In this document: positions 39,351-64,000 of the stretch, in pieces
Layout of the letters: the number at the start of each line of letters is the position of its first letter
Position numbering within the stretch: the stretch's first letter is position 1
Position numbers and translations under genes: made by a program
The notes under the pieces: model-generated
Database searches by the model: none
What the model was told of the DNA's origin: nothing
What the model saw: the letters and a program-made list of their open reading frames with translations, nothing else
NCBI GenBank assembly: GCA_946407495.1
Contig: CAMJOB010000001.1
Location: 9,549 to 73,548 of the forward strand
DNA: 64,000 bases
Origin: an uncultured Bacillota bacterium
GTDB lineage: Bacteria > Bacillota_I > Bacilli_A > RF39 > UBA660
Reading direction: 5' to 3'

Positions 39351-39929
39351 ATGGAAATTAAAAGAAGCTCGAATTATATTGAAGCAATAAATTAGCTATT
39401 TCCTGAAGTTTCTAAAAATGATATAAAAAGAATTATGGAATATGGATGGAAATAGCTATATTTATTAAATAGTTATGGTGGAGATACACTTATTACAAAC
39501 AATGGTTTTTGGATGTATACAGGAGCATTAACACCTGATTCTTTATATTATATGAGATATTATTGCAAAAAATTAGCACGAAAGATACGCATTTTATACA
39601 AAAGAAAGAAAAAAACTTGGGATGGGTATTATTATTTTGCATTAACAACAGCTCAATATGAAGAATATTTAAAGTAGAAGAAAAAGAGAGGTCGCCCTAA
39701 GAAACATTTTAAATATGGAAACATATTTTTATATAAAATAAAAGATGAATGTAAAGTTTCTTAGTGGGGATGCACACATATATTTAGAGTTCCTTATATC
39801 TCAGATTTTGGATATAAAATATATAAAGAAGATTATAATACAGATAATGCGGAACTAATTGAAGAAAGAGAAGTTCCTAAATTTAAAGATATTTTAATAA
39901 CAAACAATAATTACGAAGTACTAAAATGA
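39351..39929 (+). CDS. hypothetical basic protein (192 aa); 4 TAG
   Basis: frame 0 from ATG 39351 through TAG 39393, 39444, 39675, 39759 to TGA 39927-39929. Confidence 0.4.
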
Positions 39930-42900
39930 ATTAGGCACAAAATACATTTGAAAATGGATTACTTATGGATTTTCATCCATTGACTGTTCCTAATACTGCG
40001 GTTACTAATTGTTTAAATGGAACATTTCTAACTTATAATGGAAATGAATTTGTATTACAGAATGATATGGGAAATGGTAAAGTAGAAACAGCAGCTTTAC
40101 CAGCAGGTTATATTCCTTTAGGAACTACTTCTTTTGGAGGAATTATTTACATAGTATCTTATAATCCATTAAAAGATGTATGTCAAATAGGATGTTTTCC
40201 TAGTCCAGAACGTAATTTTTCTTATGAAGAATTAACCGAAGACGGATTTCAAATTCATAGTATAACTAATTCAGACTTTAAAAATGGTGATAATATCATC
40301 AATTTTAAAACTAAAGTTGAATTAACAAAAATAACTTTAAATCCAGGTGATAAGTTTTTAATTACTTCCGATTTAGCAAATAATGCTGATAGAATTACTG
40401 ATTATAAAAGCAGTAGTAGAAGAATAGGCGACAATCCTAAATTCTTAAGATTACACGTTGCAACTAAAGATTCTTCTGGAAGATTAGTTTATCTTGATTC
40501 TTCTTTAAAGTGGTATAAATTTGAACAAAATAAATACTATTATATACCAAAAGATAGCACAATTGAAGATACATTAGTTGCATCTAAATATTCTATATTT
40601 AATAGTAAACTTAGTGGTAATCTTTATTTAATTGCTGAATTAGAAACAATTAGTATGTTTTCATCAACATATACCATTACAGCAGATAATGATGATTATT
40701 ATCTTACATTAAATTTAGAATGGAATAGTGATAATTGGAATGAAACACAGCAAGGTATTGATCCTAAAGCTATATTATTTAATTCTCCAGCAAGTGACCA
40801 ACAAGTTTCTTTAATACCAGTTGGTTCTACTGATGAATCTTCAGAATTTTCTATTGATGTATATAATTCTGAATTAGATACAATTGATGGAACTAAAGAT
40901 GTTTCACAGAGATATAAAGAAAACGGTGGAAACATTAATATAGATTTACAAAATAAGGTAAATACTATTTCTGTTTTATGTGGTAAAATTCCACAACACT
41001 ATATTGATGAAAAAGAAAATATAAATAGAAACTTCAAATTAATTCCAGCAATGGAATTTGGAGCATTGCCAACATTTGAAGTATCACAAAATATAAACTT
41101 TGCACAAATTGGAACAGGAAATACTATAATTGATGAATGGAGATATTTTAAACAAGATGATTCTCTTATTCTTACTTATGGTTTCCAAGATTATCCAAAA
41201 CCTTTCTATAAAACATTTGAAGTATCTTTACACTTTATGTCATTAGACTTAAAAGAGATATTCCAAATAAAGAATATAGGAAAAATATCATACGCTGGAT
41301 CATTTACAACAGAACTTGAATTTGATTCATTATTTGAAGAAAATAATTTATATATTATTAAAATAACAAAGAAATCTGCTTTAGCAAATTCTGAAGATAT
41401 AACAGAAATTCCTGAAGAAGTAATAGGATATAGACTTTTATATACAACAGATTTCTTTAATGAACATTATATATCTGATGTAGAAGATTATTCAACTTTA
41501 AATTTACCTGATGGTATTTTAAGTAGTGGACTTTCAGTATCAAATACAAGTTTATCTGAAACACAAACAAATAAACTTTATAGTGATTCTGATTTACATA
41601 ATGAAACAGAATATTCTTCTGAAAAATGTCTTGTTAGAGCAACAGAAAATACACCTATCTATAATTGTGCTATTTCTAAAAAGACAACAAAATGGATAGG
41701 TATTACAGCAAAAGCAAACATTTCATCAGATTATCCTTTATTCAATACTTTTGAATGTTTATATAAACCATCTGGACCTGTTATTACTAAAAAGAGCGGA
41801 AGCGGAACTTATAATGAATTAACAAGGTCTCTTGAAATGGAAAATACACTTAAATTAGCATGGAACGGATATACAGAAGAAACCGTACAATATCAACATG
41901 GTTTAGTTCCACTAATTTATGAATTACAAGATACAGGATATTATAATTTATCTTTTGATTCTATTCAAAAGCACTTTGTATTCAACAATTTCTCATTCCT
42001 TACAAACTCTGGTGGAATAAGAGAAGGTGGAATTGAATATCATAATGGAACCTTTACAGATGATGATCAATCAGAGAATATTAGTAATTCTCAATATTGG
42101 TTTATGGAACCATTTGTAAAAGATCATGTAAATTATCATAGACACAATGGTAATCAATGTTATCCAGGTTCTGATTTCCAAAAGAATTTCAATGAATATG
42201 CTAAAACAAAAGAAAACTTTATTCCATTAACTTTTGTTAATAGTAATTATGATCCAAGTCACAATGATACTAGTCATAGAGACAGAAATGCAATGGACTG
42301 GATTGATAGTATAACAGGTGCTGATTTCTATTGGAAAGGACATTCTAATGGTGTTCATATTGCAGTAGGTAAAAATGGAGATAAAGGAGATAGTGTAAGA
42401 AAAATGCCAAATGGAAAAGGACGTATGTTATATTCTGATTATATTGGTTTTTATGAAAAAAAGCATGGTATAGAACAAGCTCCGTTCAATTATAAAATTG
42501 AGGCAAGAAGTGATAATGGAAATCCCGTAACAGAAAATAATTTATTTGAAGCTAATGGAAACTTTAAATTCAATAATTCAGCTTATAATTACGATGATAT
42601 TCCTGTTGTAAGTATAATGATGAAAGCTGTTGATAGAAATGGTGATTCATTACACTTATTTACAAATAACTTCTCTTTTATTTCACCATATAAACATTAC
42701 ATACAACCATTACCAACAAATATAGAACTATCTTTTGGTGACTTATTTGGAATGTTTATGATGCAAACATATAAATATGTTACAGAAGATTTAGAAGAAG
42801 ATATGAAATGTCCTGACGGTATAGAAGCAATAGATGATACCGATAAACCATCTAGTTGTATTTTTAATGTTAAATCTGAAGTTAAAATATTAGACTTTAA

Positions 42901-43507
42901 AATTAGGGATAAACAAAGAAGTGATTTAGAAAATACTCTTAAAACATTAGGTATTCCAGTAAATAATATCAAATTTAAATCAGAAACTAATCTTTCTGAA
43001 TATTTAGAGATAAATGATTCTGTTACTTTTAGTACACAAGTTGATAATGTTGTTAGAGAAGGATTAGCATTAAAATCATTCGATAAAAATATTTTAGTTA
43101 AAACTTGTCAAGGTTTGGTTTATACTTTACCTAAAACTAAATCTTTAAATGAATCACATATTTATGGAATTAAGAATAATTCTGAGTATACTGATTTATC
43201 AGCAATCCATTTAAGTAATTATGATGATTATTATAAGATTTTAAATAACTTATCTTATAATGAGCAAAACGGAGTAATTAATTATTCTGGATATTTATCT
43301 GAAAATGGAAATAACAATCTAAGTCCTTCTTATATAGATATATTAAAATTAGATGAAGATAAAACATTAGTAATAGACCTTGATAAATATAGACGTATTG
43401 CAAACAGAAGTTGGGATATTAACAACTGTGGTCGATACAGTGTAACTAGAATACAAGGAATATCTAGTAAGTTCTCATTCTCTAAATTATTAAATGTATT
43501 ACGCTAA
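39926..43507 (+). CDS. large tail-associated structural protein (1193 aa); single TAG at codon 3
   Basis: ATG 39926 overlaps upstream TGA (ATGA); atg aat TAG gca...; continuous with ORF 39965..43507. Confidence 0.5.
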
Positions 43508-46500
43508 TGAATTATAAATAGATATTAAATGAACCATTAAATTTTAAATTCCAAGCTAAGACTTTACCTACTAAGGGAGTCTTAGCATGGGAATATAATC
43601 CATTTAGAAATTATAGACTTACTAAATGTAATAAATTTAAATATAATGATAAATATTATACTCTTGAAGAAATAGAAGATATTCTATCTATAACTATTGG
43701 TGGTGATACTAATCTTAAACCAGAATTTGGATATAATAGAACTAGACATAATGTAGAAAATACCGATCCTCAAAAATGGTATACTTGTGAATTATCGGAA
43801 GATAAAAATCATACTACATTATTAAATGAAGTTCAAGATGTTCTTGATATTGAGTTATATGAAAAAGGACAATTAGTAGATTTTGAAACGGATGAATTAG
43901 AATTTGATTTAAAACATCCTGTTGATATAATCGCTCAAGAGTCTTATGATAATTCAGTAAATCTTATAATTAATGATGGAAAGAATATACCTAGATTAAT
44001 TAATTCTCGTTTTTCTCCTACTGAAAAGAATCATTATCAAATAGTAGATAGAAAAGGAGATAATGATACAAACATATATGATTAGGGAGATCAATTTGAT
44101 ATTGATACTTCTCTTTATAAACGTACTATTAAAATACCAAAACTAAAATTTGATGGTGTTTACCCTGGTGGTAACTTAGGAGTTGGAAACTATCATTTCT
44201 TTTTTAAATATATTGATTCTGATGGTAATGAAACAGATTGGATTGCAGAATCTGGTTTAGTTTCAGTATTCTTAGGTAATACTCCACAAAGTATTGATAG
44301 TGGTTTTGGAAATTAGAATAGTAAAAAATTAATTAAATTTACTTTAACTAATATTGATTCTGCTTATAATTATGTAAAAGTTTATTATAGTAAAGAAACT
44401 TCTGGATTTAATCAAGAAGCACAAACAACTTGTTATGAAATTGAACATAAATATATAGTAGATAAAAACAATACTTGTAATATAACAATATCTGGATTTA
44501 TTAAGGATATTGAAGTTTCAGAAGATGTAATTAATATGCAATATCAACTTGTATCATCTGTTGAAACACAAACAGTTTGTAAAAATATGTTATTTTTAGG
44601 TAACGTTAAAAAACCAGAAATTCCATATAAAGAACTTACTGATTTATCTTTAAGATTTTTACCAAAACGTTCACTTATTGATTATAATTTAAGTATTGAT
44701 TCTCAATATAATATCAATAGTAGTTCAGAAGGATATTATGATCCTGAATACATATATAATTATACAGGTTATTGGAATGATGAAATATATAGACTTGGAA
44801 TAGTTTATATTCTTCCTGATAATTCATTATCTCCAGTATTTAATATAAGAGGTGGATATAATATTGATGAAAATTCAAAATATTCATATGAACCTCTTTA
44901 TAAAAATGGAGTTAGAAATTATTTAACAATATCAGAAGATAATTATTCTATAATTTCGTCTAATAAGAATCCTATTAAGTTAGAAAATGCTAAAGGTGTT
45001 ATAACCTTAAAGACATATGATTCAAATAAAGGACCAAATGAAGAACAGCCTTATAAAATATATGGTATTAAAATAGAAATAGATAAACTACAAAAAGAAG
45101 AAGTTTTAAACGAACTTAAAAAATATACTAAAGGATTTTTCTTTGTAAGACAAAAAAGAATCCCTACAACATTATGTCAAGCTATATCTATTGCAACTGA
45201 TAAGCATAACTATTTACCTGTATTTCCAATTGGAAATAAGAAATCGTTATTTGTTAGTCAACTAACAGGTGTTTCTTACACTCAACCTAAAGAAACAAAA
45301 CTTAGTATATTTAAACAATTAACTGATGTTGGAACTGAAATTATAGATCCATACACAGGAACTACAAAACGTATTGCAGGTTCAGATAAAAACTTGGCTG
45401 AAGTTAGTTTAAAAGAAAATACAGAATATTATCTTGCTGAGTCATTTATTGATTCAAGAGATAGATATATAACAAATGATTTCTTTAGTAGAATTAGACC
45501 TATAGAATCATCTAAAGTAAAAGTTAATGCTGCGCTATGTCCAGAATTTGAACTTGATTAGACATTCTATGCTAATTTATTTACAGGTGACCAATTTGTA
45601 TTAAAGAAATCAGATATGCAACCACAAGGTTCAAGTCTATCTTGGAGTCAAGATGAAGAACGTAATTTCTATGTAGGAAAATACGTATATGCTAATGATA
45701 CAGTAGAATATAAATCTAAAATATTAGCTGTTCCAGATAGTTCTAAATTAATGGCTATTGATAAAGATAATTATAAAGGAACTGCTGGTAATTCAACAGA
45801 TGGTTGGAGATTTGATTATATAGCAAAAGAAAACAAAAAGACAGAAGCAACAAACTTTATTAGAGGTAATTGGGGACCATATTTAGGTGTTCAAAGTGCT
45901 ACTAAAAATAAAGTTTTAACACAATATGATATTAAAATTCCTGGATATAGTAAAAGTAAAATTCAAGAATACTTTAATGTTAGATATAGTGATAATTCTT
46001 CATTCTATCCTATTTCAGATAGATTAGAAATAAATGATTTTGGAGACAATTTTGTTTTATATAGAGGTGACTGTTACATATGTCAATTTACACATAGAAT
46101 GAACCGTAATTTCCAAGATCCAGCTGCACCTACTAATGATGATATTGTAAATCCTAAATGTTGGAAAGAAAACTATTCTGTTAAAGACGGAGTAATTGAA
46201 AAACATAAGTTTGCTAATATTAACATTGGTGATTTAAATGCAGTAAGATTAGGAACATGGGTTACATTTACAGTACGTTCTACTAAGAATTTATGTATAC
46301 GTGGTGTAGATGATAGTCATTCTGATGAAAAAGCATTAATAGGACACGGTCGTGGTTTTTATCCTCGTTATAAAATAAACTTAGATGGTTCTTATAAAAC
46401 ACCAGAATCTTCATACTTTAATAAAGGATTTCAAAAGGAATTTGGTGTTAAAAAATACATAGAAGCTGCTGATGTACCTGCAGAAAAGAATGAATTTTCA

Positions 46501-48777
46501 AGTAGAATTTTATATTCAAACCCTGCATCAAATGATTCTTATACAAATAACTTTAGAGTATTCGAATTAGGACACTTTAAAGATTATTCTAAAGAATATG
46601 GTTCTATTACTAAATTAGTAGAATCAAATGGTTCAATACTTATTGTATTTGAACATGGAATAGGTAGTCTTGCAGTTAATGAAAAAGCATTATTACAAAA
46701 TATTCAAGGTGATGATGTTTATATAGGAGCTAATAAAGTAATTGGTGAACCAAGAATTATTTCTGATAAATTTGGTAGTCAATGGAAAGAAAGTATTGTT
46801 AAAACTCCACATTACATTTATGGTGTTGATACAGTTGCTAAGAAAATATGGAGAGTTGGAATAGATTCTCCAAATGTAGAATGTATTTCTGATAAACGTA
46901 TACAACAATTCTTAAATCAAAATATTATATTAAGTGAACGTGAATTAATTCCTATTATTGGAATTAGAAACGTTAAATCTCACTATAATGGATTTAAAAA
47001 TGATGTATTATTTACATTCTATGATAATCTAAGAGGATTTGAAGAAAAAGTATGGAATATATGTTGGAATGAGATTACTTAGAATTGGACAACTCTTTAT
47101 TCATGGGTTCCTTCTTATTCTGAAAACATATTTAATCAGTTCTTTACTTTTGATAGAAATACATCTAAATGGATTGCTAAATTAGGAATTAGTAATTGTA
47201 ATTCTGATTTTGCTGATGGTATCACTTTAGACAATAATATTATTGATGATAGTTCAGAAAATTACCAAAATTTGGCACTTTACAACAGAGATGGAATCGA
47301 ATCTGAAGAAATCCATGTTGGACTATTAACTTTATCAAATAGGGACTTAGAAGACGATTATATAGTAGAATATACATTAGAAAGAGATCCATTCGGTAAC
47401 TATAAATATTTCGCTGTAGATGATGGTACAATTCACATTATTGACGAAACAGGAAGAAGAATATTAACTGAAGATTATATTGGTGATACTTATGATGAAG
47501 AAACAGGAGATAGTGATTTAATTACAGAACCTGTTGATTTAACACATGGTAAACCTTGGGCAGTTGTTCAAAAATATAAACTACCAGATGATTATCCTTA
47601 TCCTGTAATATTACTTAATATTTCAGCAAAAGTTGTATCTGCTAAAAATGAAAATAAAACATTATTAAATAGCACATTAGTAAAAGAAAATTATTATAAT
47701 AATACTATTGCTATTTGTTTAAAATCTGTTTATGATAATGGAAATACAGTACCTTATGATGAATCTAAACCATCATTAATGAGTGCTTTCTGGAGACATG
47801 GACAAGCTGGCTTACAAGATATTGCTGAAAAAATTAAACCTTGTCATTGGTATGGTAAACAACATCCATTTGAATTTGAATTCTGTGTAAATGAAAACCC
47901 AGAACTTCAAAAAGTATTTGATAACTTACAAATTATATCAAATAATGCAGAGCCTGATTCATTCCATTATGAAATAATAGGAGATGGTATAGAATTTGCT
48001 AATGACAAAAAGAATATGTATATTCGTCAAGAATCTACAAAAGAATTATATCAATATAATGGAAGTGATATTCTTTACAACGATGATTGGAAAGAACTTG
48101 AAAAAGATGGAGTAAAACAAAATCCGAAATCTACAATCTTACCACAAATGTATGAAGCACGTCAAGATACATTTAATGAGATTGAGGATCAATATAAGAA
48201 AATTACTTCATCTAATAAAAACTATGATGAATTAACAGGAACCGAAGTTACTTATGATAAAGTAACTGGAGAATATGGTTTATGGGTTCATAGTAAAGCC
48301 ATTGATGTAAATAGTGGATCTGGAAATAGATTAAGAGGTAATATGCAGTATAGAAATGATAATTGGAAAGTTCAAATCTCTCCTATTAATTTCGTACAAA
48401 AGAACGAAAATGAAGGTTTAGACGAACAAGGAAATATCATAAATTCAACTTGGAAGAATGGTAAAGTACCTATTAGTATTGCTAATATTCCAATTCCTGC
48501 CAATATTACTAATTATGATTTAGATATTCCAGAATCTTTAAAAGATAAAGAAATAGATGTTGATTCTTGGGGAGATTTACCTATAATTCAAAATGTAGAA
48601 CGTAAATCTAATGATGGAAAAACTACTTATACTTATGAAGTTGGAAATCCTGACTCAAAATGTACGAGACAGCAAACTAAAATAAGAGATAAATATGTGC
48701 GAATTAGAATACGTTATTCAGGTGAAAAACTTGCTTTAATTCGTAAAATAATCACTATATATTCACAATCATTATAA
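43507..48777 (+). CDS. giant tail-associated structural protein (1756 aa); TAG at codons 5, 193, 270, 685, 1192
   Basis: frame 1 continuous from ATG 43507 (TAATG overlap) through ORFs 44536, 45616, 47272 to TAA 48775-48777. Confidence 0.5.
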
Positions 48778-52643: not shown

Positions 52644-52973
52644 ATGAAAATATTATTTACAAACGGTAACAAAACTAAGAAATTCCAGCAAGGTGGAGAA
52701 GTTGCACCAGAAGCAGGTGGTGCACCAGTAGGAGCACCAGAAGGAGGAGCACCACAAGGTGGTGGAGAAGATCCAATGATGCAGATTGCTCAAATGGCTT
52801 TACAAGCATTACAAACACAAGATTGTAATGCAGCTATGCAAGTATGTCAAGTATTTGTTCAACTTCTACAGCAAGCACAAGGCGGTGGAGCACCTGAAGA
52901 AGCACCTGCTGAGGAAATGGGAGAACCTGTTTATCGCAGAGGTGGAACATTAGTAAAGAGAATTAAGAAGTAA
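52644..52973 (+). CDS. small protein with N-terminal KFQQGG motif, GGAP low-complexity and Gln-rich helix
   Basis: ORF track 109 aa; followed by terminator. Confidence 0.4.
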   Translation: MKILFTNGNKTKKFQQGGEVAPEAGGAPVGAPEGGAPQGGGEDPMMQIAQMALQALQTQDCNAAMQVCQVFVQLLQQAQGGGAPEEAPAEEMGEPVYRRGGTLVKRIKK

Positions 52974-52981
52974 TTTATTTT

Positions 52982-53015
52982 AGGAGCGCACACTAACAAT
53001 GTGTGCTCCTTTTTC
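52982..53015 (+). terminator. rho-independent terminator
   Basis: 11-bp stem aggagcgcaca/tgtgtgctcct (one G-U), loop ctaacaa, then ttttt. Confidence 0.6.
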
Positions 53016-53022
53016 ATTTAAT

Positions 53023-56000
53023 ATGGCTCAAGTAAAGAAATTTTAGCAAGGTGGTTCCGTTAATTCTAACCTTTTTGACATAGGAGGTAGAAATGTAAAT
53101 AAAAATGATTTTATTTACTTAGCTAAAAAGAATTGGAACACCTTCAAATCAAATTATAATATCTCAGGCGATGATGCTGTTGATGCTGATAATGCTTTTA
53201 ATAAAGTATTACAAAGTATCGAAAGAGGAGATATTAGTTCAATGGGTGAAAATGGAGAATTATTCGATAAGACAGGTACATTATCAAATAATTCAGACCA
53301 GAAAAACTCTTACGGTAAAGCAGCTCAATATTTATGGGAACTTGGCGTAGGAATGGACACCTATCAAGAAGATAATAAAAAGAAAGGACTTAAATACGAA
53401 GATACAAGAGGAGCTTTAGGTAATATCATTAATAATAGTTTTTATGGTGGTAATTATACAGGCTCTGACCAAGATATTAAACTTTGGCTAAATCAAGATG
53501 CTGTTGATGCTAACGGAGTTCGTTCTAGAGTTAATAGAATGAATGCTTTAGCTAATTATTTAGAAAAATTAAAAGCAGATGTAAATACACAAGATATTGA
53601 TTATGAAGGAAGTAAATATAAAGATAAAAATGAAAGACTTTCTCATATTGATAATGCTATATCTCTTCTTAAAAAAGGAGAATATAACGATAATGTATTA
53701 CGTGCTTTAATGGATGTTGGTGATATGACAAGTACTCAAGCAATGTCATGGTTAGCTGATGGTACAGAACAATCAACTCAACAAAATCCAGAAGAACCTG
53801 CTCAACTTTCTGATGATGACAAAATAAAAGTACTTGCTAAACAATTAATGCAAGAAAGACCTGGTGTTTCATTAGAAGATGCTACTTCTTTAGCAACAGC
53901 TAAATTCAATCGTGATAAACAACAATCTCAAGCTCAAATCAGAAAAGAAATTCAAGACATCAACTTTAATAATTGGTTTGATGAAGTTTCTAAAGATTTC
54001 CAAGCAACTAATTTTAGTTTACACGATCCAAAATATAGTTTAAACTATTATAAAAATACTGATGCACCAAATTTCGGAATACACGATACTATCATTGATA
54101 AGTATGAACAATTAATGTCAGGTAAGAATAGATCTTTTATTGACTATTATAAAGTGGCAAATTCAGGTGTTAAACATAGACTTAGAGCATTACTTGATAT
54201 AGAATCTGAACGTGCCGAAAGAGATGGTTTTACAAAAAATCTTAGAAAACTTGGAAACGGTTTATATGCTTTAAGAGGATATACTCGTTATAATAACGGA
54301 TATGCTTGGGTATATAATAGTAGAACAGGTGATTTAAATAAAATACAAACTAAATCAAATCCATATTTGTTTGAAGAAAACGAAAAATGGTGGACTACTA
54401 ATAATGCTAAATATAAGCAAGGTGGTATTCTTTTTGCTCAACAAGGTGCAAGTATTAGAGAAATTCTCGCAGAAGAAACAAAAAATGCTAGACAAGCAAG
54501 ACAAGATAAAATTAAAACTGCATCAAAAGCTCAAAATAGACCAGAAGAAGCAGTAAAGAATGGTTCTAAGAAAGCGAATAGTTTAGGTGAAGCATATGAT
54601 AATATGAACACTGCAAATAAAGTTAGATTCTATTCTGCTGTTGGTGATTTAACAGGTGCTGTTGCTTCTTTTGTACCAGGTTACGGAAATGCAATTTCTT
54701 TAGGTCAAGGTATTATATCTGATGTTGCAAGAGCAGGTGCTGATATTTCAGAAGGATATTCAGCAGGTGATGTAGCTTGGAATTTTGCTAAAGGTTTAGG
54801 AATGACTGCTATTGGAGCTATTCCATTAGTAGGTACAGGAACTAAATTATCAAAAGCATGGAAAGCAACAAGAGCATTTGTTCCTTGGGCACTTAGTATT
54901 GGTGCAACAATGGGTGATGTAAGTGCTGCAGAACAAGCATATAAAAATATAGAATCTGGTAAAGGTACAGTTGATGATTATATGGCTATGGTTAAATTGC
55001 TAACAAGTGTTTCTAATACAACAAAACTTGGAAGTAGTACACTTAAAGCAAGAGCTATTAAAAATGCCACAAAAACTAATAATACTGAAATTACTATTAA
55101 AGGTAAAAAAGGTAACATTAAATTAAATCAACAGCAATTAGACAAATTAAAAACAGCTAAGACTCAAGATGAAATGAACCAAATGATTAAATCAATGGGA
55201 CATAATGATGAAATAGCATTTAGTCGTAATGTATTTGGTGAAAATCTTAAGCCTACAGATGCTGGTCGATTTGGAAAATCAGCTAGAGTAACTAAATCTC
55301 CAGTATATGATTTTAGTTTAGTTGCTAATAATTCAATATATAGAAAAGGTCCTGTTTCAGAAGTCGGAATGATGCAAATGAATGTAAATCGTCCATCTTG
55401 GTTACATTTACCATCAATTGGTTATAAACCTACTACTGTTACAAAATCTGCAACACCTGTTGTAGCACCTAGTGTAACACCTACAAGAGTTGCAGCTTTA
55501 CCTAATTCTCCATTACGTTCTAATACTCCATCACCAATTCCTCCAGCAACACGAATGATAGGAAGAAATAATAAACTAACAATTGGTGGATATAAAAAAG
55601 GAGGACGTATAGAACGTCTAATTGAAAAATATCAAGCAGGTGGTAAAACAGTAAAACAATATGGTTTACCAACAGATGATATTTGGAACGCTGTAATATA
55701 TGATTTAGATAATCGTTATCGTAATAACTTTACAAATGATACTGATTTTGATTATGTAAATCGTAATATTGATGTTACAGATAAAGTAAGTCCTAAAAAC
55801 AATCTTTATGATGTAGAAGGAAATAAACCTTATACAGATCCTAAACAATTAGAACTTTATCATAATCAAGGTAAATTAGTTGAAGATAGAAATAAAAACT
55901 TTTATAAACAATTATTAACAAACCCTGTTCTTGCTGAAAAGTGGGCACGTGATTATTTAAAATATAATCATTCTACTACTCATGGTAAAGAATGGTTTGA

Positions 56001-57423
56001 AAAGAATAACATTATTAAAGACGGCATTTTTAATTTTGGTAATTTTGTAAATGCTAAATATAATGGAAATCGTTTATGGGAAGACCATTTAAATGCAACA
56101 GGACATGATGTTTATAAAGGTAAAGTTTATTATATTGAAGGACAAGATGGTTATTATGGAGATAAATTACCAGAAGGATATAGGATTGATCCTACTGATC
56201 AAGGTATTGATGTTGAAAATGGATTAATAAGAAAGTATAAACTTATTAAAGATCCAACTCAACCACAACCTAATCCACAACCTACTCCACAACCTCAAAA
56301 CAAACAGTCAGTAATAACTCCTCCTACTAAGGAAGAAGTTCAACCTACTACAACAAATCCTTCAGTAGTTCAACCTAAATCTAATTTTGATCCAACTCGT
56401 TTAGGTGCTGATGCACTTGCATTAAGAACAGCACTTGATACTATTAGAACTAATAATTTATTAGCTGATAGAGCTTTAGGAAAACAACTTCCTTTAAAAA
56501 ATCCTAATAGTATGGTTGCTCCAACTGCTGATGTTTATAATATCTTAGCAAATGGACAACAAAACGCTGGACAAATTAATACACAAGGTCGTCAAGCACA
56601 AAATAGTGTTGCTAATACAGAAACAGGTCTTTTAGCAAGACTTCATGCTGCAAGAGATGCTACTAAAGTAAAACAAGAAGCAGGTCTAAAAGCAGATGAA
56701 AAACGTCAAGCATATGCTGATAAGGCTGTTGAAGTTGGAAATTACAATCACGCTCAAGAAGTTGAAACAGGTAATTTTAACAACGGTCAACTTGTTAATA
56801 AAAAGAATATGGACATAGATATTCTTAACGGACGTGATGCAGCTAATTTACAAGTTCGTTCTGCATTAAGTGATAAATATGAATTAGATTTAAGACAAAA
56901 ACTCGCTAAGGCTGAGGCTAAACGAGATATGGAAGAGCAAAAAGCTGAGTTAAAGAAAGAACAAATTGCTGATATGCAAGAACAATGGAATCAAAGACAA
57001 GTTCAATTGTTAACAAATTATCATATGAATGTTGATCCAGCTTATGTAAAAGCACGTAGAGGTTATGAAGAAGCTGTTAAAAATAAAGACACAGCAAATG
57101 CTTCTAAATATAAAGCGGATATGGATGTTATTGCAAATAAGTATAAAGTAGATGCTTATAATCAAATGGGACGATATAGTGCTAATAGATATGGAGTAAA
57201 TTGGAATGATTTACAAATATCTAAAAATCCTTATTCATATTCAATGCCTACTAAGAAAGCAAAAGGTGGAACAATTTATGATAATATATTCAAGGCTCGA
57301 CTTGATGACAATAGAAGATTTGATAAAAGAATTTCAGAATCTATAAAAACTACTTAGAAAGCAATTGGAGATAGCAGTGCTATCACAAAAGCTATTCTTA
57401 ACAAGTTAATGAGTAAGTGGTAA
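53023..57423 (+). CDS. giant virion/cargo-like protein (1466 aa) with N-terminal KFQQGG motif (Q encoded by TAG at codon 8)
   Basis: ATG 53023 frame 1 continuous through TAG 53044 into ORF 53242..57357, through TAG 57355 to TAA 57421-57423. Confidence 0.5.
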
Positions 57424-57424
57424 T

Positions 57425-59332
57425 ATGATAAAATTTTTACAATCTGGAGGTGGTTTACCACCTTTTCAATATTATAGACCAGTAACGGTCACAACTCCTA
57501 GTGGATCAGTAGCACAACCTCAAAGTGCTACTGCATCTACAAAGGAAACAAAATCTGATGCGTTAACTGATAAAGATGTTCTTAAAGCATTAGATAAAAT
57601 AGATGGACTTCCTTCAGATATGTCCGTTCTTAAATCAGGTTTAGTATCTGCATTAGGTACAGATTCTGGTTTTAGTATATTCGGTTCATCTGATAGTCTT
57701 TTTGGTAGTATCAATCAAATTGCAACTCAATATGCTGATACTTTATTAGGAATTAAAATTGCTAATTTTAGTAAAAAGAAATATGATGATATTAAAAAGA
57801 CACTTGACCAAAATGGCGGATTGAATGAAATTGCCGTTACAGATTCTGGAGGAGTATTAGTAACAGATAGGGACGGAGAAATATCTCAAATTTCTATAGA
57901 TACTTATTTATAGAATAAACACAGATACAAGGCTCTTACTAATTCAAATATTCTTTATATGAGAGCCTATAATCCAGACTATGCTAACAATGATGCTTTA
58001 ATGGATATAGCATCAAATGGTATTGGTCTTACTGAAATTAATAAACAAATTAAAGGAGCACTTGGAAGTCTTGGTCACGATGATAATACAAGAGAATCTT
58101 ATACTGTTATAAAAGGTGTAGAAGCACTTAAAGAAATATATAATAAAACAGGTGAAATAAAACCTGAAGGATTATATAAAATTAAAAATGCTACATCTAC
58201 TCAAAGAGATCAAGCACAAGCAGCTATCAATTATATATGGAATATGTTACCTGAAAACTCTAAAGCAGTTCTTAAATTGAAGTCAGGTAGTGAACAAGAT
58301 GCTAAACTTCTTGTTGCTAATTTTGTTGCTTCTGGAACTACAAGCAAACAAGATTATGGAGAAAGCTATATTCTTGATGCTGAGGGTAACAAACCAGGTG
58401 CTAAGAAAGAAGGCGAAGGTGGTGAGAAAAATGAATACAAACCAGGAGTTGTTTCTAATTTCATTAGAGGTAACGGTAAGCCTTCATCTTTTGTAATAAT
58501 GAATGGAACTACAGATGGTTTAGTTGTTCAAGGTATAACTTCATCATTAACAAATAATTCTGGTAAAATATTAGGAGCTTCAAGTTTAGCTACTATTAAT
58601 AAAGGTGGATATAATGGAGTTCTTGATTGGAATAATGTTAGTATGGGTGGAGTACCTATATCAGAAGCACATTTATCTGAATTAATGTGTACTGATGGAC
58701 GTATAACTTCTATTGATTTTCCTATTGATATAGCGGAAAAACAAAAAGGAAATATTGTTCCTAATTATGAAATGTTTGCATTAAAAGAAAAAGCTGATAG
58801 AGAAATAAAGGCTGCAAACTTAGAAGAAAAACAAGATTATGATTCAATTAATGCTATATATGCTAAATACAATCTTCCTACTAAATATGATGCAAGTGGT
58901 AATTTAATTACAACTCATTGGGCAAGATTTGGAGTTATGCAAGGTGTTGCATTAAGTAAAGCATTTGATGATGATCAATCATTTAATGATTTATTAAAAG
59001 AAGTTTCAGATAATGAATTAGAAAGTTACTTAAAGTTATTCAATAATGAAGCACACATTAGCGGTTCACAACAAGAATTAAAAGGAAAAGATATTGAATT
59101 TGATAAATCAAGTTGGTGGGATAAAATGTGGGGTAACGGACAACATTGGTGGTCTACACATGATCAAATGTTTAAAGGTACTATATTTATTCCAATTGTT
59201 GTTGATGAATTTGCTGCTATGGCGGGTGATGATAGTCATACCAAAATAGATGAAAATGAAAGAATAGCTGGTTTACAACAAGATCACGATTTACAAGAAA
59301 CAACTTAGTTACAAGGTCGTCTTGATGAATAA
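57425..59332 (+). CDS. virion/cargo-like protein (635 aa) with N-terminal KFLQSGGG motif; 2 TAG
   Basis: frame 2 through ORFs 57425 and 57959, TAG 57911 and 59306, TAA 59330-59332. Confidence 0.45.
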
Positions 59333-62300
59333 TGGAAAAGAATTATGATTTAATTTTAAATATGACTGCTAATCCTGGACTGTCTTTAGGTAATCTAAAG
59401 ACAGTTGGATTAACAGCTGATAATACTGCTTTAGAAAGTGAAGACAAGTATTTAAATTCATAGAAAATTCAGAATATGAGCATTTTTAAAGATGATGAAG
59501 GAAACTTTAGTAAAAGTAAATTTCATGATTTTTATAAAGTAGCTCAATCAACATATAATATAATGGCTAGTGACGCATATACAGATGACGTCGCTAAGAA
59601 AAGTCGTACCTATCACAGAGATAATATTTTTGCACCTCTTGAACAAAGAAGAAAAGGTCCAGAAATAAATTGGGTAAAACAAAGTAATCCATTTAAATCT
59701 ACACAAAGTATTGTTCGTTTAGGTAAGGTAGAAGATGGAAAATATACATGGGATGAACTTGCACAAAGAGAAAAAGTTCTTGCAAATCCTAGAGAGGCAA
59801 CAAGACCTGATGGAACTATTGATGAATCTAAAGCTATTTGGCAAGATGCACCAAATGATTCTTGGTTTAGTAATTTCTGGGAAACTCGTGTAGCTGCACA
59901 ATGGGATGAAGACGGTGAACATTTAAATCCTGTTACAGGTGAAAAAGAAACACATAAAAAAGGAGATTTAAAACTTAATTCTTCTGGTAATTTCTATTAT
60001 GAAAATCTTGATGGACGTGATGTTTACGGACGTAGAGTTCTTAATAAAATGAACACTTTAACTACTGATGGATCTGAATTTAATAAATATGATTTCTTTG
60101 ATTCTGATGGTAAAGATAAAAGTGTTGGAGGAACTATACTTAAAAATGCAGCCTTAGTTGGTTCTATGTTTATTCCTTATATTGGACCTGTTGTAACAGG
60201 ATTAGGATTAGCATCACAAACTGCTGGTTTACTTGGAACATTAGGTAAAATGGGAGCAAATTTTGCTAATGATAATCTTGGTACTAACATAAACAATTCT
60301 ATATTTTCTGAAATGGAAGGATTTAGTAAATCTGTAGGCAGAAATGCAGTTTCAGAATATTCTCAGCAAAATATGTGGTCTGCTGAAAATTTAATTGGTT
60401 TAATAGGTGATGTAATGGCTCAATTTAAAGAGCAACGTTTCTTATTTGAAAAAGCACCAATTATTTTTAATAATAAATATGGAATTGTAAATAATGGTAA
60501 TTATCAAAGTAAATTAGCTGAATTAGAAAGTCAAATTGCTAAATTTGATAAAACAAGAATTGATGATTTAGTAAAATCAGGAAAAACTATTACTGATATT
60601 CAAAGAGCCGCTAAAGAACTTGCATTAGTAAGACAAGAAAGAGCGGTTACTGAACTTGATTCTTATATTAAAGGATACAATAAGATAGGAGAAATCTTAT
60701 CTAAAACATATATGACAGGTCTTGTTGTAGGTGATACCTATGGTGAGGCTAAATTACAAGGAGCATCTGATAATGAAGCATTATGGCTTACACTTGGATA
60801 TGCTTCAGCCGAAGCCGCATTACTTAATACAGGTGTTGGTGAATGGCTATTTCCAGAACTTCGTTATAATAAACTACATCAAAAAGCTATTGGTGAAGCA
60901 TTAGTTAAAGCTAAAAACGAAACAGCAAAACTCGGTGAAAGTTTAACAAGTTCTGCAATAAAGAAAGGTGAAAAAGAGGCAAAGAAAGATTATGTTAAAA
61001 GACTTTTTAATCTTGGTAAAAAAACTGCTGAAGATTTATATACAGCTAATAAATCAACTGGAGACAAGACTATAAAAGCAGCATTTGCTAATGCTCTTGG
61101 TGAAGGTACTGAAGAAGTAACAGAAGAATTTTTAGCAGATTTCTCTAAATCTTGTTTTAATGCAATAGGATGGTTAAGAGGAGATAATACTCGTTTAGAA
61201 GCATTTGACAATTTTAATTGGCAAGATCTTCTTAGTAGATACTCTATGAACTTCTTAGGAGGTTTTATTGGAGGTGGAGCCGCTGGATTTAGTTTAGATA
61301 ATATGCGTAATATGAAAAAGCTTGACCATATGGAATTCGATCAAGCTATTCAAGAACTTGCATATATTGTTCGTAATGGACAAACTAAGGAGTTCCTAAA
61401 GACTGTTGATGAAATGACTTTAGGCGATAGACGTAAATCTGCAACTCAATTTACTAAAGAAGGTGATAATTATGTTTGGGCACAAGGTACTGATGAAGAT
61501 AACCAAGATCTTGCAGCTAAAAATGCAATTCGTGCACAAATACAATTATTTGAAGATATACTTTCAAGCGAAGGTATTAAAATGAGTGATGATTCATTCT
61601 TATCAAAAAATGTTGATTTACTACCAGATATTAAATTTGGTCTATTAAAACAATCTTCTACAGCAGGTCGTTTCCTACAACAATTTAACTCTTTAAGTAC
61701 AAAATTAATTGAAGCAAATGCTTCATTACTTGCAGCTAAAGGTAAATTGACTGAAAATTCAGAGAATAAAGAAACAGGAAACGCACAAGTTGATATTGCT
61801 GATAATCAAAAACAATTATTACAACAACAAATAGCTCAAATAGAGCAACAATTACAAACTGCATCAACTGAAGAGCAAGTTGCTTTAAAAGAAAGTCTTA
61901 AAAATCTTAAATCTCAATTAGGTAATCAACAAAACGGAGCAAGCGAAGTTCAAAGATTAGAAAGACAATTAAAAGATTTAAGACAACAAAAAGAAGACTT
62001 AATTTCTGGAAAACGTGCTAATGAATTTTTACAAGATTCATTATATGAAATGACTGATGCTATTAATAATAACTTTATTAAACCATCATTTATTCGTTAC
62101 GCAGAATATAAAACTAAAAAGAAGTTTAACGAAATTCCAGAAAATCTTTTAGGTAAACTTCAACAAGAATGGAAAGCATGGGGAGAAATGGACAGAGCAG
62201 AACAAGTACACCAATCTGCTGAGATATTCAAAAATGTACTTGTTAATTCAATGCCTATTTTAACTCAAAATGTTGCAAAATATGAAGAGTTACTTCAATC

Positions 62301-64000
62301 ACAAGATGTTGCTAATTTACAAGAAAACTTTGCTAATTGGTTAAATCTTTATCAAGATATATCTAATGTTAGAAATTCTGATAATTGGATAGAAAAAGTA
62401 TCTGCATCATTATCTAGTTTATATCAAGGAATTGGTTTAGTATTTTCTGATGAAACTTTTAGAAATAACTATAGTAAACTTGTAGAAGATGCTATTAAAT
62501 TAGAACAAAAGTTTAATGAGCAACGTGCTGAAATAAAAGGTAAAATTAATGATGCTAATATTAACACAAGTTTATCTCAAGATGAAAAGACTCAATTAAT
62601 TGATGATCTTAATTTACAATTACAAGCATTAGAAAATAATTATAAAAAGGATTCTAATGAACATAGTAAAAAACTTGATTTTGCAGTGTCTGACCAACTT
62701 GTTAAATCAGTTGAAGATTTAGTTAATCCTTATATCAAACAAGGATTTATTAATTCTGAAGTAAAACACGCTTTAAAAGAAATTTTAACTCAGGCTCAAT
62801 CTGTTTTAAGACAACAATCTAGTCCTTATCATACAACATTAGCAAATCTTAGATGGAAAAAGCGTTCTGATGAGGAAGAGAAACAACTTAAAGAAGCAGA
62901 GGAAAAAATAAAAGAAAGTAACGGTCATAGAGACAGATTTAAAGAAATACAAAAACAATTAGATACTTTAAGTTCTTCACCTATTGAACAAATACTTGAT
63001 CAATTTACTACATCTGTTGGAAGTGATATTAAAGTTTCAGCTTTATTAAAAACAATTAATGATATTTTAGATGGTGTTAAATCTGATGTTACTCAATTCT
63101 CATTAAGTAAACCATTATCAGATCAAATTGTAGAAGCATTAAATCTTATTGATTTATTAGGTTCTGTAATTGAAGCATCTAAAGTAGATGAAGGTAACAT
63201 TGATCATATTTATGGTTATACTAAAGTATTAAATGAAATTAACCATAAAGTTGGTAACTCTAAATGGGTTGATTTAGCAGAACTTAAATCTTCAACAGCT
63301 GATGTGTTAAAACAAGATTTATCAATTATAAGAAATAAACTTAATTTCTTATATAATCTTTATGCTATTTCTTCTGGACAAAAATTTGCTGAACAAAAGA
63401 GAGTTTCTTTAAATACAAATTATTTATTCTATAATAGATTAAATCAATTTGTTGCTGCCATCCCTGATGATAATGAATGGGAAGGTTTAAGTGAATTAAA
63501 GAATAAACTTAATTCATTAGCAACTTTAAGTAAAAATGCTCCAACAAGAAATTTAACACTTAGCACAGAAGACCAAAATAAAATAGACGAAGAGGTAATT
63601 CAAATGGAAGATGCTATTTATGATTTCTTCCAAAAGAATATCGAAAACGTAAAAGATAAACAAAAACTTGCTAATTTACTACATAAAAATGTTAATCTTT
63701 ATCAATTACCTACTGAAACTTTAACAAGTAAACTTGAGGCAATAGATGATAACTCATTTGTTTGGTGGTTAGCAACTCGTGGTGCACTTAAATCTACAGA
63801 CTTCCATAAAGAATATGCTGCTATCATAGACGATAAGATAGCACCTATTCCTACACAAGAAATTGCAACTTATGAGAACTATGCATCCATTGTTAATAAA
63901 GATTTCTTTACTGATTTTTATAATGGATTCAGACAAGCAATTAAAGATGATTGGAGTACTTTAGATGAAGATGGAAGACTTGAAATTATCAATCAACAAA
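59332..64000 (+). CDS. giant coiled-coil-rich protein, 5'-partial in window (more than 1555 codons, runs off the window end); 1 TAG at codon 44
   Basis: ATG 59332 (TAATG overlap); frame 1 has no TAA/TGA to position 64000; not in ORF track because it has no stop within window. Confidence 0.5.

What the first reader, a model, noticed from the sequence alone, without database searches (positions are those of the whole stretch)
39926..64000. Run of giant ORFs downstream of the head module, the last running off the window
The block consists of 39926-43507 (1193 aa), 43507-48777 (1756 aa), 48779-51466 (895 aa), 53023-57423 (1466 aa), 57425-59332 (635 aa) and 59332 to beyond 64000 (more than 1555 codons, coiled-coil rich). 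They are chained by ATGA/TAATG overlaps and separated by only one terminator, at 52982. This matches the crAss-like pattern of tail/muzzle proteins followed by packaged cargo proteins that include the virion RNA polymerase. I did not spot a DxDGD-type double-psi beta-barrel catalytic motif by eye inside the window, so the RNAP, if present, is probably further downstream or in the truncated ORF.
Basis: inference. Interest (0 to 1): 0.55.

Follow-up and report, generated by a model that had tools for sequence, protein, structure and literature searches.

The report
Recoded crAss-like phage tail and cargo genes
This is the tail-tip ("muzzle") and injected-protein gene block of a Zeta-group crAss-like gut phage that reads the stop codon TAG as glutamine; it is a further example of a known arrangement, and its virion RNA polymerase gene lies just beyond the window.

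Summary
The six giant ORFs sit at the stated coordinates, but only if TAG is read as sense. They contain 19 in-frame TAGs, and standard code breaks the block into 14 fragments. Recoding is well supported: a CTA-anticodon tRNA lies at 1199-1271, TAG aligns with CAA/CAG in 94-98% identical relatives, and every ORF ends in TAA or TGA.

The crAss-like reading holds. The capsid, ring-1 and muzzle proteins match Pfam crassvirus families, and g2 (43507-48777) is the muzzle protein. The truncated last ORF (g6) extends to window-equivalent 68598 (3088 aa). It is not the RNA polymerase: it is a helical N-terminal domain followed by a RecD-like SF1 helicase core. The polymerase is the next gene, g7. It has D[FY]DID at about residue 2190, and its profile matches the catalytic regions of the phi14:2 and crAss001 polymerases. 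In relatives an insertion carrying a LAGLIDADG gene splits that motif (shown to be a group I intron in one).

Gene order and sizes match the published Zeta crAss-like phage Lera gene for gene. g1 and g3-g5 have no detectable homologs in reference crassviruses. A K[FY]xxGG motif and a widespread orphan 100-aa domain mark g3-g5.

Verdict: new member of a known kind; low-to-moderate interest.

The parts
1199..1271 (+). Suppressor tRNA with anticodon CTA, which reads TAG
   Evidence: ARAGORN. TAG aligns with CAA (4 times) and CAG (3 times) in close relatives, so it is read as Gln.
32680..34098 (+). Major capsid protein (context: the head module)
   Evidence: Pfam Crass_capsid, E 1.1e-19; phrog_11589; 58% and 53% identical to MT835470 and MT835492, about 22% to Suoliviridae.
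38216..38911 (+). Tail ring protein 1
   Evidence: Pfam CrAss_Ring_1, E 1.9e-7. Same position as ring protein 1 in phage Lera.
39926..43507 (+). g1, 1193 aa (1 TAG): lineage-specific protein between the ring proteins and the muzzle; probably an exposed tail appendage
   Evidence: More than 2000 unnamed homologs. The N-terminal ~100 aa are nearly invariant and the rest is variable. The AF2 model is beta-rich and matches only generic Ig/FN3 sandwiches. No Pfam, PHROG, PDB or reference-crassvirus hits. Equivalent to the 1104-aa hypothetical protein in Lera.
43507..48777 (+). g2, 1756 aa (5 TAG): muzzle protein (MUZ, also called tail stabilization protein)
   Evidence: Pfam crAss_MUZ E 3.9e-23 and crAss_MUZ_C E 2.5e-7. 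BLASTP to crAss001 gp44 (1.6e-9, 7e-7) and phi14:2 gp082 (2e-10). tblastn hits the 'stabilization' proteins of many Crassvirales.
48779..51466 (+). g3, 895 aa (8 TAG): Gly/Ala-rich putative ejection/cargo protein, in the position of crAss001 C1
   Evidence: Conserved position after MUZ in L009, L010, L011 and Lera. 10% Gly. No similarity to crAss001 gp45.
50423..50716 (+). g3 conserved domain, copy 1 (NVIPEGALHxxxHH..ITKKGIPV..AEIE)
   Evidence: The two copies are 64% identical, E 8e-42. Domain HMM E 2.8e-45.
51164..51463 (+). g3 conserved domain, copy 2, preceded by FKQGG
   Evidence: Domain HMM E 7.7e-48. 1464 representative clusters carry the domain, mostly at the C-terminus. No PDB or Pfam relative.
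51483..51935 (+). 150-aa ORF (1 TAG), poorly conserved
51944..52534 (+). DUF192 protein, 196 aa, conserved in this position
   Evidence: Pfam DUF192, E 4.6e-24. Same position in L009-L011 and Lera.
52644..52973 (+). 109-aa protein with N-terminal KFQQGG and C-terminal GEPVYRRGGTLVKRIKK
   Evidence: Alignment of four orthologs; motif scan.
52982..53015 (+). Intrinsic terminator-like hairpin (11 bp stem) plus T-run
53023..57423 (+). g4, 1466 aa (2 TAG): putative ejection/cargo protein with repeated K[FY]xxGG motifs and a P/Q/T-rich linker
   Evidence: Conserved synteny. Motif at residues 7, 464, 870 and 1412. No family, PDB or reference hits.
57425..59332 (+). g5, 635 aa (2 TAG): putative ejection/cargo protein with N-terminus MIKFLQSGGG
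   Evidence: Orthologs of 594-632 aa share the conserved N-terminal motif. No family hits.
59332..64000 (+). g6, first 1556 of 3088 aa: helical N-terminal domain of a giant RecD-like protein. The helicase core starts about 120 nt past the window end.
   Evidence: Extension in L001, which is 100% identical over the overlap. AF2 gives long helices with no fold match. All SF1 motifs are invariant in alignment A1. Best PDB match is RecD. Homologs hit Pfam AAA_30/AAA_19 and TIGR01447 recD weakly. Lera annotates the equivalent as 'RecD-like protein'.

Best explanation
Window 39926-64000 is the distal-tail and ejected-protein (cargo/transcription) gene block of a Zeta-group crAss-like phage of about 181 kb. 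Its mRNAs are translated with TAG read as glutamine, using a phage-encoded CTA-anticodon tRNA.

Shown:
- g2 is the muzzle protein.
- The upstream genes are a crassvirus capsid protein and a ring protein.
- TAG is decoded as Gln.
- g6 is a 3088-aa protein whose C-terminal half has a complete SF1 (RecD-like) motif set.
- The next gene, g7, carries the crAss-type catalytic motif D[FY]DID and matches the catalytic region of known virion RNA polymerases.
- The whole order is conserved in relatives at 25-40% identity and in the published phage Lera.

Inferred:
- g1 is an exposed tail appendage attached through its invariant N-terminus.
- g3, the 109-aa protein, g4 and g5 are packaged and then ejected through the muzzle ahead of the DNA, like crAss001 C1/C2 or the T7 and P22 ejection proteins. 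They would form the trans-envelope conduit. They share a K[FY]xxGG element.
- g6 and g7 follow into the cell. The helicase would open or translocate the incoming DNA for the polymerase, which in phi14:2 transcribes only single-stranded or denatured templates in vitro.
For: Recoding:
- 19 in-frame TAGs, with TAA or TGA as the only terminators.
- tRNA with anticodon CTA.
- TAG aligns with CAA/CAG in relatives.
- In-frame TAG is strongly depleted relative to the other frames.

Crassvirus identity:
- Pfam Crass_capsid, CrAss_Ring_1, crAss_MUZ and crAss_MUZ_C.
- BLAST and tblastn hits to MUZ orthologs.

Extension and synteny:
- L001 is identical to the window over the overlap.
- The order MUZ, g3, DUF192, ~100-aa protein, g4, g5, g6, g7 is conserved in L003, L006, L009, L010 and L011 and in Lera Table S1 (PMC12386605).
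- A 181,348-bp contig carries the same region.

g6 helicase:
- Invariant Walker A, Walker B and motifs III-VI.
- Best PDB match is RecD.
- Homologs hit AAA_30/AAA_19 and recD.

g7 polymerase:
- DYDID and DFDID at about residue 2185 in uninterrupted relatives.
- Profile hits to phi14:2 gp077 residues 1314-1663, crAss001 gp50 residues 1440-1700 and the cr53_1 polyprotein, at domain E of about 1e-5.
- Pairwise alignments are in register with the motif.

Cargo character:
- g6-N is all-helical and g3-g5 are Gly/Ala-rich.
- The K[FY]xxGG motif is confined to 48779-59332: 7 strict hits against 0.6 expected.
- The C-termini of orf109 and g4 resemble the crAss001 gp45 C-terminus.
Against: - No sequence or profile similarity of g1, g3, g4, g5 or g6 to any crAss001, phi14:2 or cr53_1 protein. 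There are no PDB hits, and no Pfam or PHROG hits apart from the sub-threshold AAA_30 match for g6.
- Packaging of these proteins is not shown for any member of this lineage.
- A RecD-like helicase could instead act in replication or recombination.
- Our own g6 falls below the Pfam AAA_30 cutoff (16.4 against 27 bits).
- Only the first 238 codons of g7 were seen for this genome itself. The catalytic motif was read in relatives.
- Assignment to the Zeta group rests on synteny with a published table and on genome features, not on a phylogeny.
Confidence: 0.85

Rival explanations
1. The giant ORFs are an artefact of reading through genuine TAG stops, and the real genes are the 14 shorter table-11 ORFs.
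For: Table 11 gives fragments of 109-1371 aa. Public gene calls on the same contigs are fragmented. TAG supplies only 5.6% of Gln codons.
Against: - A CTA-anticodon tRNA is present.
- TAG aligns with CAA/CAG in relatives.
- The similarity to crAss001 gp44 and the Pfam MUZ and MUZ_C matches fall on g2 segments separated by in-frame TAGs.
- The TGA-recoding relative L010 has the same genes uninterrupted, with no TAG.
- Every frame terminates only at TAA or TGA, with tight ATGA/TAATG coupling.
- In-frame TAG is about ten-fold rarer than in either of the other two frames.
Confidence: 0.03
2. g3-g6 are not ejected cargo. They are external tail components (fibres or tape-measure-like proteins), and g6 is an intracellular replication or recombination helicase that merely sits next to the polymerase gene.
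For: There is no detectable homology to crAss001 C1/C2 or the RNAP-associated proteins. The g6 helicase core is RecD-like. Lera also annotates an 'exonuclease V' downstream.
Against: - The position between muzzle and virion polymerase is conserved across relatives at 25-40% identity. In crAss001 and phi14:2 that position holds virion-packaged proteins (PMC10172136; bioRxiv 10.1101/2020.03.07.982082).
- The proteins have helical or Gly/Ala-rich low-complexity character typical of ejection proteins.
- There are no beta-rich fibre-like predictions for g6-N.
- The genes are translationally coupled to g5 and g7.
Confidence: 0.15
3. The window belongs to a crAss-like lineage outside the described Zeta group, that is, a new family-level clade.
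For: MCP is only about 22% identical to classified Crassvirales, and only two unannotated GenBank genomes are close. No Zeta sequence was available locally for direct comparison.
Against: - The gene-for-gene match to Lera includes its idiosyncrasies: DUF192, the giant RecD-like protein, and the RNAP split by a homing endonuclease.
- The 181-kb genome, the TAG/TGA switching among relatives, and the introns and inteins all fit the published Zeta description (PMC7886860).
Confidence: 0.1

Closest known systems
Zeta crAss-like phage Lera (PV725988; proposed family Echekviridae; Babkin et al. 2025, PMC12386605)
   Same: Lera has the same gene order and similar sizes. The Lera sizes, in order, are:
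- MCP 470 aa
- 280-aa hypothetical
- ring protein 3
- capsid protein 379 aa
- ring protein 2
- ring protein 1
- 333-aa hypothetical
- 1104 aa (equivalent to g1)
- muzzle protein 1524 aa (g2)
- 517 aa (g3)
- DUF192
- 107 aa (the 109-aa ORF)
- 931 aa (g4)
- 628 aa (g5)
- RecD-like protein 2781 aa (g6)
- 2106 aa, then a homing endonuclease, then RNA polymerase 876 aa (g7)

The genome size is also similar (about 180 kb).
   Different: - Lera recodes TGA to Trp, whereas this phage recodes TAG to Gln, and only lightly.
- g3 (895 aa, with a duplicated C-terminal domain) and g4 (1466 aa) are much longer here.
- No sequence-level comparison was possible because the Lera record is not in the local collections.
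Bacteroides phage crAss001 virion module (gp39-gp50; Bayfield et al. 2023, PMC10172136)
   Same: Crassvirus capsid, ring and muzzle proteins are followed by large proteins that include a two-barrel virion RNA polymerase with a DFD[IV]D motif. crAss001 gp45 has a lysine-rich KKAKGG C-terminus like those of g4 and orf109.
   Different: - There is no detectable homolog of C1 (gp45), C2 (gp46), gp47 or gp49.
- An extra 1193-aa protein (g1) lies before the muzzle.
- DUF192 and a 109-aa protein lie inside the block.
- A RecD-like helicase is fused into a 3088-aa protein, whereas no Walker A motif occurs in crAss001 gp43-gp50.
- The catalytic motif lies at about residue 2190 rather than 1483.
- All genes are on one strand.
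Cellulophaga phage phi14:2 gp66 virion RNA polymerase (GenBank gp077; PDB 6VR4)
   Same: The g7 profile matches residues 1314-1663 around 1361-DFDID-1365, with Ile at motif position 4.
   Different: - g7 is outside the window.
- It has about 800 extra N-terminal residues.
- Overall identity is undetectable outside the catalytic region.
- In close relatives the gene is split within the motif by an insertion carrying a LAGLIDADG gene (a group I intron in L010).
Stop-codon recoding (TAG to Gln, code 15-like) in crAss-like and other gut phages (Yutin et al. 2021, PMC7886860)
   Same: A phage suppressor tRNA is present, TAG occurs at Gln positions in virion genes, and neighbouring branches use TGA instead.
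   Different: The TAG load is low (5.6% of Gln codons, against 32% in relative L009). MCP and several structural genes are TAG-free.

Membership tests
Crassvirales virion module | Crassvirus-type major capsid protein | tested here: met
   Pfam Crass_capsid, E 1.1e-19, 70.6 bits against a cutoff of 27.
Crassvirales virion module | Tail-barrel ring protein | tested here: met
   Pfam CrAss_Ring_1, 31.2 bits against a cutoff of 27.
Crassvirales virion module | Muzzle protein with crass domain | tested here: met
   Pfam crAss_MUZ 82 bits and crAss_MUZ_C 31.5 bits, both above the cutoff of 27. BLASTP to crAss001 gp44 and phi14:2 gp082.
Crassvirales virion module | Large virion RNA polymerase with a DFD[IV]D catalytic motif | tested here: met
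   This feature lies outside the window. DYDID (L003, 94% relative) and DFDID (L009) were read in relatives. Profile hits to the catalytic regions of phi14:2 gp077, crAss001 gp50 and cr53_1. For this genome itself only the first 238 codons of g7 were read.
Crassvirales virion module | Homologs of cargo proteins C1 (gp45) and C2 (gp46) | tested here: not met
   No BLASTP or HMM similarity was found. These proteins are not universal: gp46 is reported missing in the delta and zeta groups (PMC10172136).
Zeta crAss-like group (proposed Echekviridae) | Gene order of the structural and transcription block | tested here: met
   Gene-for-gene match to Lera Table S1.
Zeta crAss-like group (proposed Echekviridae) | Genome of 145-192 kb | tested here: met
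   A 181,348-bp contig is 99.8-100% identical over window 1-13090. Relatives lie on contigs of 146-178 kb.
Zeta crAss-like group (proposed Echekviridae) | Alternative codes that differ between branches, with many introns and inteins, including in the RNAP DxDxD motif | tested here: met
   TAG-sense in L009 and L011, TGA-sense in L010. A group I intron with a LAGLIDADG gene lies inside GSD|YDID in L010, and L006 is interrupted at the same site with a LAGLIDADG gene downstream. An intein-like in-frame insertion lies at window 2841-3848.
Zeta crAss-like group (proposed Echekviridae) | Phylogenetic placement by TerL, portal and MCP | not tested
   No Zeta reference sequences were available in the local collections.
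SF1 helicase, RecD-like (g6 C-terminal half) | Walker A, Walker B and motifs III, IV, V and VI | tested here: met
   Invariant GxxGxGK, IDE, GDxxQ, R, GxE and YTxxxRxxxG in 14 sequences.
SF1 helicase, RecD-like (g6 C-terminal half) | Significant match to a curated helicase family model | tested here: inconclusive
   - Our sequence: AAA_30 at 16.4 bits, below the cutoff of 27.
- Homologs: precomputed AAA_30 and AAA_19 hits, and TIGR01447 recD at E of about 1e-5 but far below its cutoff.
- PDB profile: RecD at E 0.002 over the P-loop only.
SF1 helicase, RecD-like (g6 C-terminal half) | ATP-dependent DNA unwinding | not testable with these tools
   Needs biochemistry.
TAG-to-Gln recoding (code 15-like) | Cognate suppressor tRNA, and TAG at conserved Gln positions | tested here: met
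   tRNA with anticodon CTA. TAG aligns with CAA 4 times and CAG 3 times.

The most novel reading that the evidence does not exclude
g6 may be a virion-packaged, ejected protein in which a ~1500-aa helical cargo domain is fused to an active RecD-like SF1 helicase. The helicase would melt or reel in the entering genome for the co-ejected two-barrel RNA polymerase, which in phi14:2 needs single-stranded template in vitro.

In the same reading, the K[FY]xxGG element and the ultra-conserved ~100-aa 'FKxGG-NVIPEGALH...TKKGIPV...AEIE' domain shared by g3, orf109, g4 and g5 would be a common signal that sorts or docks ejection proteins in the capsid, portal or tail barrel.
Probability: 0.25. Interest if true: 0.6.

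Novelty: new member of a known kind. Interest (0 to 1): 0.27.

Why it matters
Zeta crAss-like phages are abundant in the human gut, uncultured, and almost unannotated. This window is a clean, lightly recoded example. The whole muzzle-to-polymerase block can be read without frameshifts, so it is a convenient reference for annotating that group.

Standard-code annotation shreds these genes. Intein-containing PHROG families also mislabelled a nuclease gene as a terminase.

Two features could guide experiments on how crassviruses package and eject proteins and start transcription: the RecD-like helicase embedded in a giant protein next to the virion polymerase, and the shared K[FY]xxGG/100-aa domain signature of the putative ejection proteins. 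Both are hypotheses here, and the general architecture is already published.

Tried and rejected
- Megablast of the block against GenBank phages: no match.
- Exact 51-mer from the window end against IMG/VR: no match.
- PHROGs on g1-g6: only two weak 'virion structural protein' hits, both on g2.
- Pfam on g1 and g3-g6: nothing, apart from a sub-threshold AAA_30 match for g6.
- Pfam on crAss001 gp47, gp49 and gp50 and phi14:2 gp076 and gp078: no families exist, so no Pfam route to 'cargo' identity.
- Single-sequence PDB searches for g1, g4, g6, g7 and a g2 fragment: nothing meaningful.
- Five-sequence HMMs of g3, g4, g5 and g6, and a 138-sequence HMM of the g3 domain, against all ORFs of crAss001, phi14:2 and cr53_1: nothing significant.
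- Idea that g1's invariant N-terminus is a detached muzzle ring-joining domain: no support.
- Zincin HExxH motif (the phi14:2 gp65-type protease): absent from g1-g7.
- Foldseek of g6-N against PDB: best E 0.13.
- Foldseek of g1 against PDB and BFVD: generic Ig/FN3 folds and uncharacterised homologs only.
- PDB profile search with the g3 domain: nothing.
- Recovering full g7 through a homology search with its N-terminus: only two short fragments returned.
- Fetching Lera PV725988: not in the collection.
- My early reading of ORF 2259-4172 as TerL was wrong. The 'terminase' hits fall on an intein-like insertion.
- The idea that TAG recoding is confined to the + strand virion block is not supported. 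A 553-aa ORF with 18 TAGs lies on the other strand upstream of the window.

Full report
**1. Observation**

Under the bacterial code, 38-64 kb holds 14 + strand ORFs of 100 aa or more, not six giants. Translating the six claimed frames shows every internal stop is TAG (1, 5, 8, 2, 2 and 1 per ORF). None is TAA or TGA, and the five complete ORFs all end in TAA. With TAG as sense, the claimed ORFs appear at exactly the stated coordinates.

Each ORF is far beyond chance: P(no TAA/TGA) runs from 1e-20 to 1e-55. In-frame TAG (19) is strongly depleted compared with the random expectation (about 156) and with the two other frames (390).

The gene junctions are ATGA or TAATG overlaps, or 1-nt gaps. 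The hairpin at 52982-53010 plus its T-run is the only strong + strand terminator in 44-64 kb. An alternative g4 start at 52999 lies inside that hairpin, so 53023 is preferred.

**2. Recoding**

A tRNA with anticodon CTA lies at 1199-1271. In relatives at 94-98% identity, TAG positions align with CAA (4 times) and CAG (3 times), so TAG is read as Gln. TAG supplies 5.6% of Gln codons here, against 32% in g6 of relative L009. Relatives L009 and L011 are TAG-sense and L010 is TGA-sense.

All of this matches Yutin et al. 2021 (PMC7886860). That paper reports suppressor tRNAs, TAG-to-Gln or TGA-to-Trp recoding mostly in late genes, and code switching between Zeta branches.

**3. Which phage**

Pfam identifies the following:
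- a crassvirus major capsid protein at 32680-34098 (E 1e-19);
- ring protein 1 at 38216-38911;
- crAss_MUZ (E 3.9e-23) and crAss_MUZ_C in g2.

g2 also aligns to crAss001 gp44 and phi14:2 gp082 and to the 'stabilization' proteins of many Crassvirales.

At sequence level the lineage is remote. MCP is 53-58% identical to two unannotated gut genomes (MT835470, MT835492) and about 22% identical to Suoliviridae. g6 and g7 hit only those two genomes.

Exact-protein look-ups found the region in two ENA contigs. One, of 100,524 bp (L001), is 100% identical over 16,042 bp of overlap. The other, of 181,348 bp (L013), is 99.8-100% identical over window 1-13090.

Supplementary Table S1 of the Zeta crAss-like phage Lera (PMC12386605) lists the same order with similar sizes:
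- MCP;
- a 280-aa hypothetical protein;
- ring protein 3;
- a capsid protein;
- ring protein 2;
- ring protein 1;
- a 333-aa hypothetical protein;
- a 1104-aa protein (equivalent to g1);
- the muzzle protein;
- a 517-aa protein (g3);
- DUF192;
- a 107-aa protein;
- a 931-aa protein (g4);
- a 628-aa protein (g5);
- the 'RecD-like protein' of 2781 aa (g6);
- a 2106-aa protein, a homing endonuclease and then the 'DNA-dependent RNA polymerase' of 876 aa (g7).

I therefore assign the window to the Zeta group. That assignment is an inference from synteny and genome features. No phylogeny was possible.

**4. The truncated ORF and the polymerase**

In L001, g6 runs to window-equivalent 68598: 3088 aa, 6 TAGs and a TGA stop that overlaps the next start as ATGA.

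The in-window 1556 aa are predicted to be long helices plus a small beta domain (pLDDT 69.8), with no fold match. Just past the window end begins an SF1 helicase core. In a 14-sequence alignment, Walker A, Walker B and motifs III-VI are invariant. Supporting matches are weak but consistent:
- The profile's best PDB match is RecD (E 0.002).
- Homologs carry Pfam AAA_30 and AAA_19 and weak TIGR01447 recD hits.
- Our own sequence is below the Pfam cutoff.

No reference crassvirus cargo protein has a Walker A motif.

The next gene, g7, begins at window-equivalent 68595. In uninterrupted relatives it reads LQGSDYDIDAV (L003) or LQGSDFDIDTV (L009) at about residue 2185. This is the crAss-type motif: DFDID in phi14:2 gp66, with Ile or Val at position 4 in all crAss-like RNAPs (bioRxiv 10.1101/2020.03.07.982082).

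A five-sequence g7 profile hits three targets among 90 reference ORFs:
- phi14:2 gp077 residues 1314-1663 (domain E 6e-5);
- crAss001 gp50 residues 1440-1700 (8.5e-5);
- a fragment of the cr53_1 polyprotein (1.4e-5).

Pairwise BLAST is in register with the motif.

In L006 (98% relative) and L010, the ORF breaks inside the motif and a LAGLIDADG gene follows. The L010 insertion matches Rfam group I intron (E 2.4e-7 and 2.3e-5). The gene call for this genome (2120 aa) implies a stop right after GSDY, so it is probably interrupted too. That is an inference. Yutin et al. already noted disruption within DxDxD in Zeta phages. The window itself has no DxDGD or D[FYW]DxD in any frame.

**5. The other giants**

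- g1 (1193 aa) has more than 2000 unnamed homologs on 100-206 kb contigs. Its N-terminal ~100 aa are nearly invariant and its remainder is variable.
- The g1 AF2 model is beta-rich (pLDDT 55.8 overall, 70-90 for residues 110-680). It matches only generic Ig/FN3 sandwiches and uncharacterised gut-virome proteins.
- g1 shows no relation to reference crassvirus proteins. I read it as an exposed tail appendage, with low confidence.
- g3, g4 and g5 have no Pfam, PHROG, PDB or reference hits. They are Gly/Ala-rich, and their positions are conserved in all relatives.

**6. Shared signatures (noticed here)**

A K[FY]xxGG element is conserved in orthologs at these positions:
- the N-termini of g4, g5 and the 109-aa protein;
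- internal sites in g4;
- immediately before g3's C-terminal domain.

Strict matches number 7, against 0.6 expected, all within 48779-57423. g5 carries a variant at its N-terminus (MIKFLQSGGG), which extends the element's range to 59332.

g3 ends with a ~100-aa domain (FKxGG-NVIPEGALHxxxHH..ITKKGIPV..AEIE..), duplicated here at 64% identity. The domain is present in 1464 representative clusters at 60-70% identity, usually at the C-terminus. It has no PDB, Pfam or reference-crassvirus relative. Some carriers contain inteins.

The C-termini of orf109 (GEPVYRRGGTLVKRIKK in this window; [FY][KR][KR]GG across orthologs) and g4 (TKKAKGG) resemble the crAss001 gp45 C-terminus (TKKAKGGKVRTKKKK).

**7. 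Mechanism**

The steps shown are the muzzle identity, the recoding, the helicase motifs, the polymerase motif and profile match, and the synteny.

The rest is inferred by analogy with crAss001 (PMC10172136) and phi14:2. In this model g3-g5 and orf109 are packaged and ejected first to build the conduit. g6 and g7 follow, and the helicase may provide single-stranded template, or DNA translocation, for the polymerase. Packaging is untested.

**8. Verdict**

This is a new member of a known kind, the Zeta crAss-like phages. Interest is low to moderate.

Noticed in passing
window 2259-4172 (insertion at 2841-3848): The 637-aa ORF is a ~300-aa PD-(D/E)XK-like protein carrying an in-frame 1008-bp insertion that contains LAGLIDADG_3, so it looks like an intein. 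The insertion is absent from a 99.8-100% identical 181-kb contig (L013). PHROG 'terminase large subunit' hits fall on the insertion and are misleading. By Lera synteny, the real TerL is probably 7715-10117.
   Followed up: partly
window 48779-59332 (g3, 52644-52973, g4, g5); L009, L010, L011, L003: A short K[FY]xxGG element is conserved at the N-termini of g4, g5 and the 109-aa protein, at internal sites in g4, and in front of g3's C-terminal domain. There are 7 strict hits against 0.6 expected, none elsewhere in the window; g5 carries a variant. The C-termini of orf109 and g4 resemble the crAss001 gp45 C-terminus.
   Followed up: partly
window 50423-50716 and 51164-51463: An orphan ~100-aa domain (NVIPEGALHxxxHH..ITKKGIPV..AEIE) is duplicated in g3. 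It occurs in 1464 representative protein clusters at 60-70% identity, mostly at the C-terminus. It has no PDB or Pfam relative. Some carriers contain inteins.
   Followed up: partly
L006 16040-16584; L010 23480-24410; L011 14540-16007: Insertions carrying LAGLIDADG genes split the RNA polymerase gene exactly within the catalytic GSD|YDID codons in two relatives that are only about 25% identical to each other. L010's matches Rfam group I intron; L006's gives only a chance-level Rfam hit (E 0.98), and that locus is cut off at its end. A similar insertion splits g6 between its N-terminal domain and its helicase part in L011. The gene-call length suggests this genome's g7 is also interrupted.
   Followed up: partly
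L009, L011 versus L010: Relatives with the same gene order use different recodings. L009 and L011 read TAG as sense (43-47 TAG per giant gene) and L010 reads TGA as sense. This phage is only lightly TAG-recoded, and its MCP, ring-1 and DUF192 genes are TAG-free.
   Followed up: yes
L013 12198-13859 (upstream of window position 1, opposite strand): A 553-aa ORF with 18 in-frame TAGs lies among small TAG-free ORFs. TAG recoding is therefore not limited to the + strand virion block.
   Followed up: no
window 25598-27970: A TAG-free 790-aa ORF with two Glyco_tranf_2_4 stretches (E 9e-27) sits inside the structural gene region.
   Followed up: no
window 12550-18054: Another giant ORF (1834 aa, 12 in-frame TAGs) lies upstream of the head genes and outside the finding. 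By Lera synteny it is probably one of the tail or baseplate-like proteins.
   Followed up: no
window 51944-52534: A DUF192 (COG1430) protein is strictly conserved between g3 and g4 in every relative and in Lera. Its role in a cargo block is unknown.
   Followed up: no
window 1381-2079 (- strand): A 232-aa TAG-free ORF with precomputed Pfam Phage_lysozyme2 lies next to the suppressor tRNA and is transcribed divergently from the virion genes.
   Followed up: no
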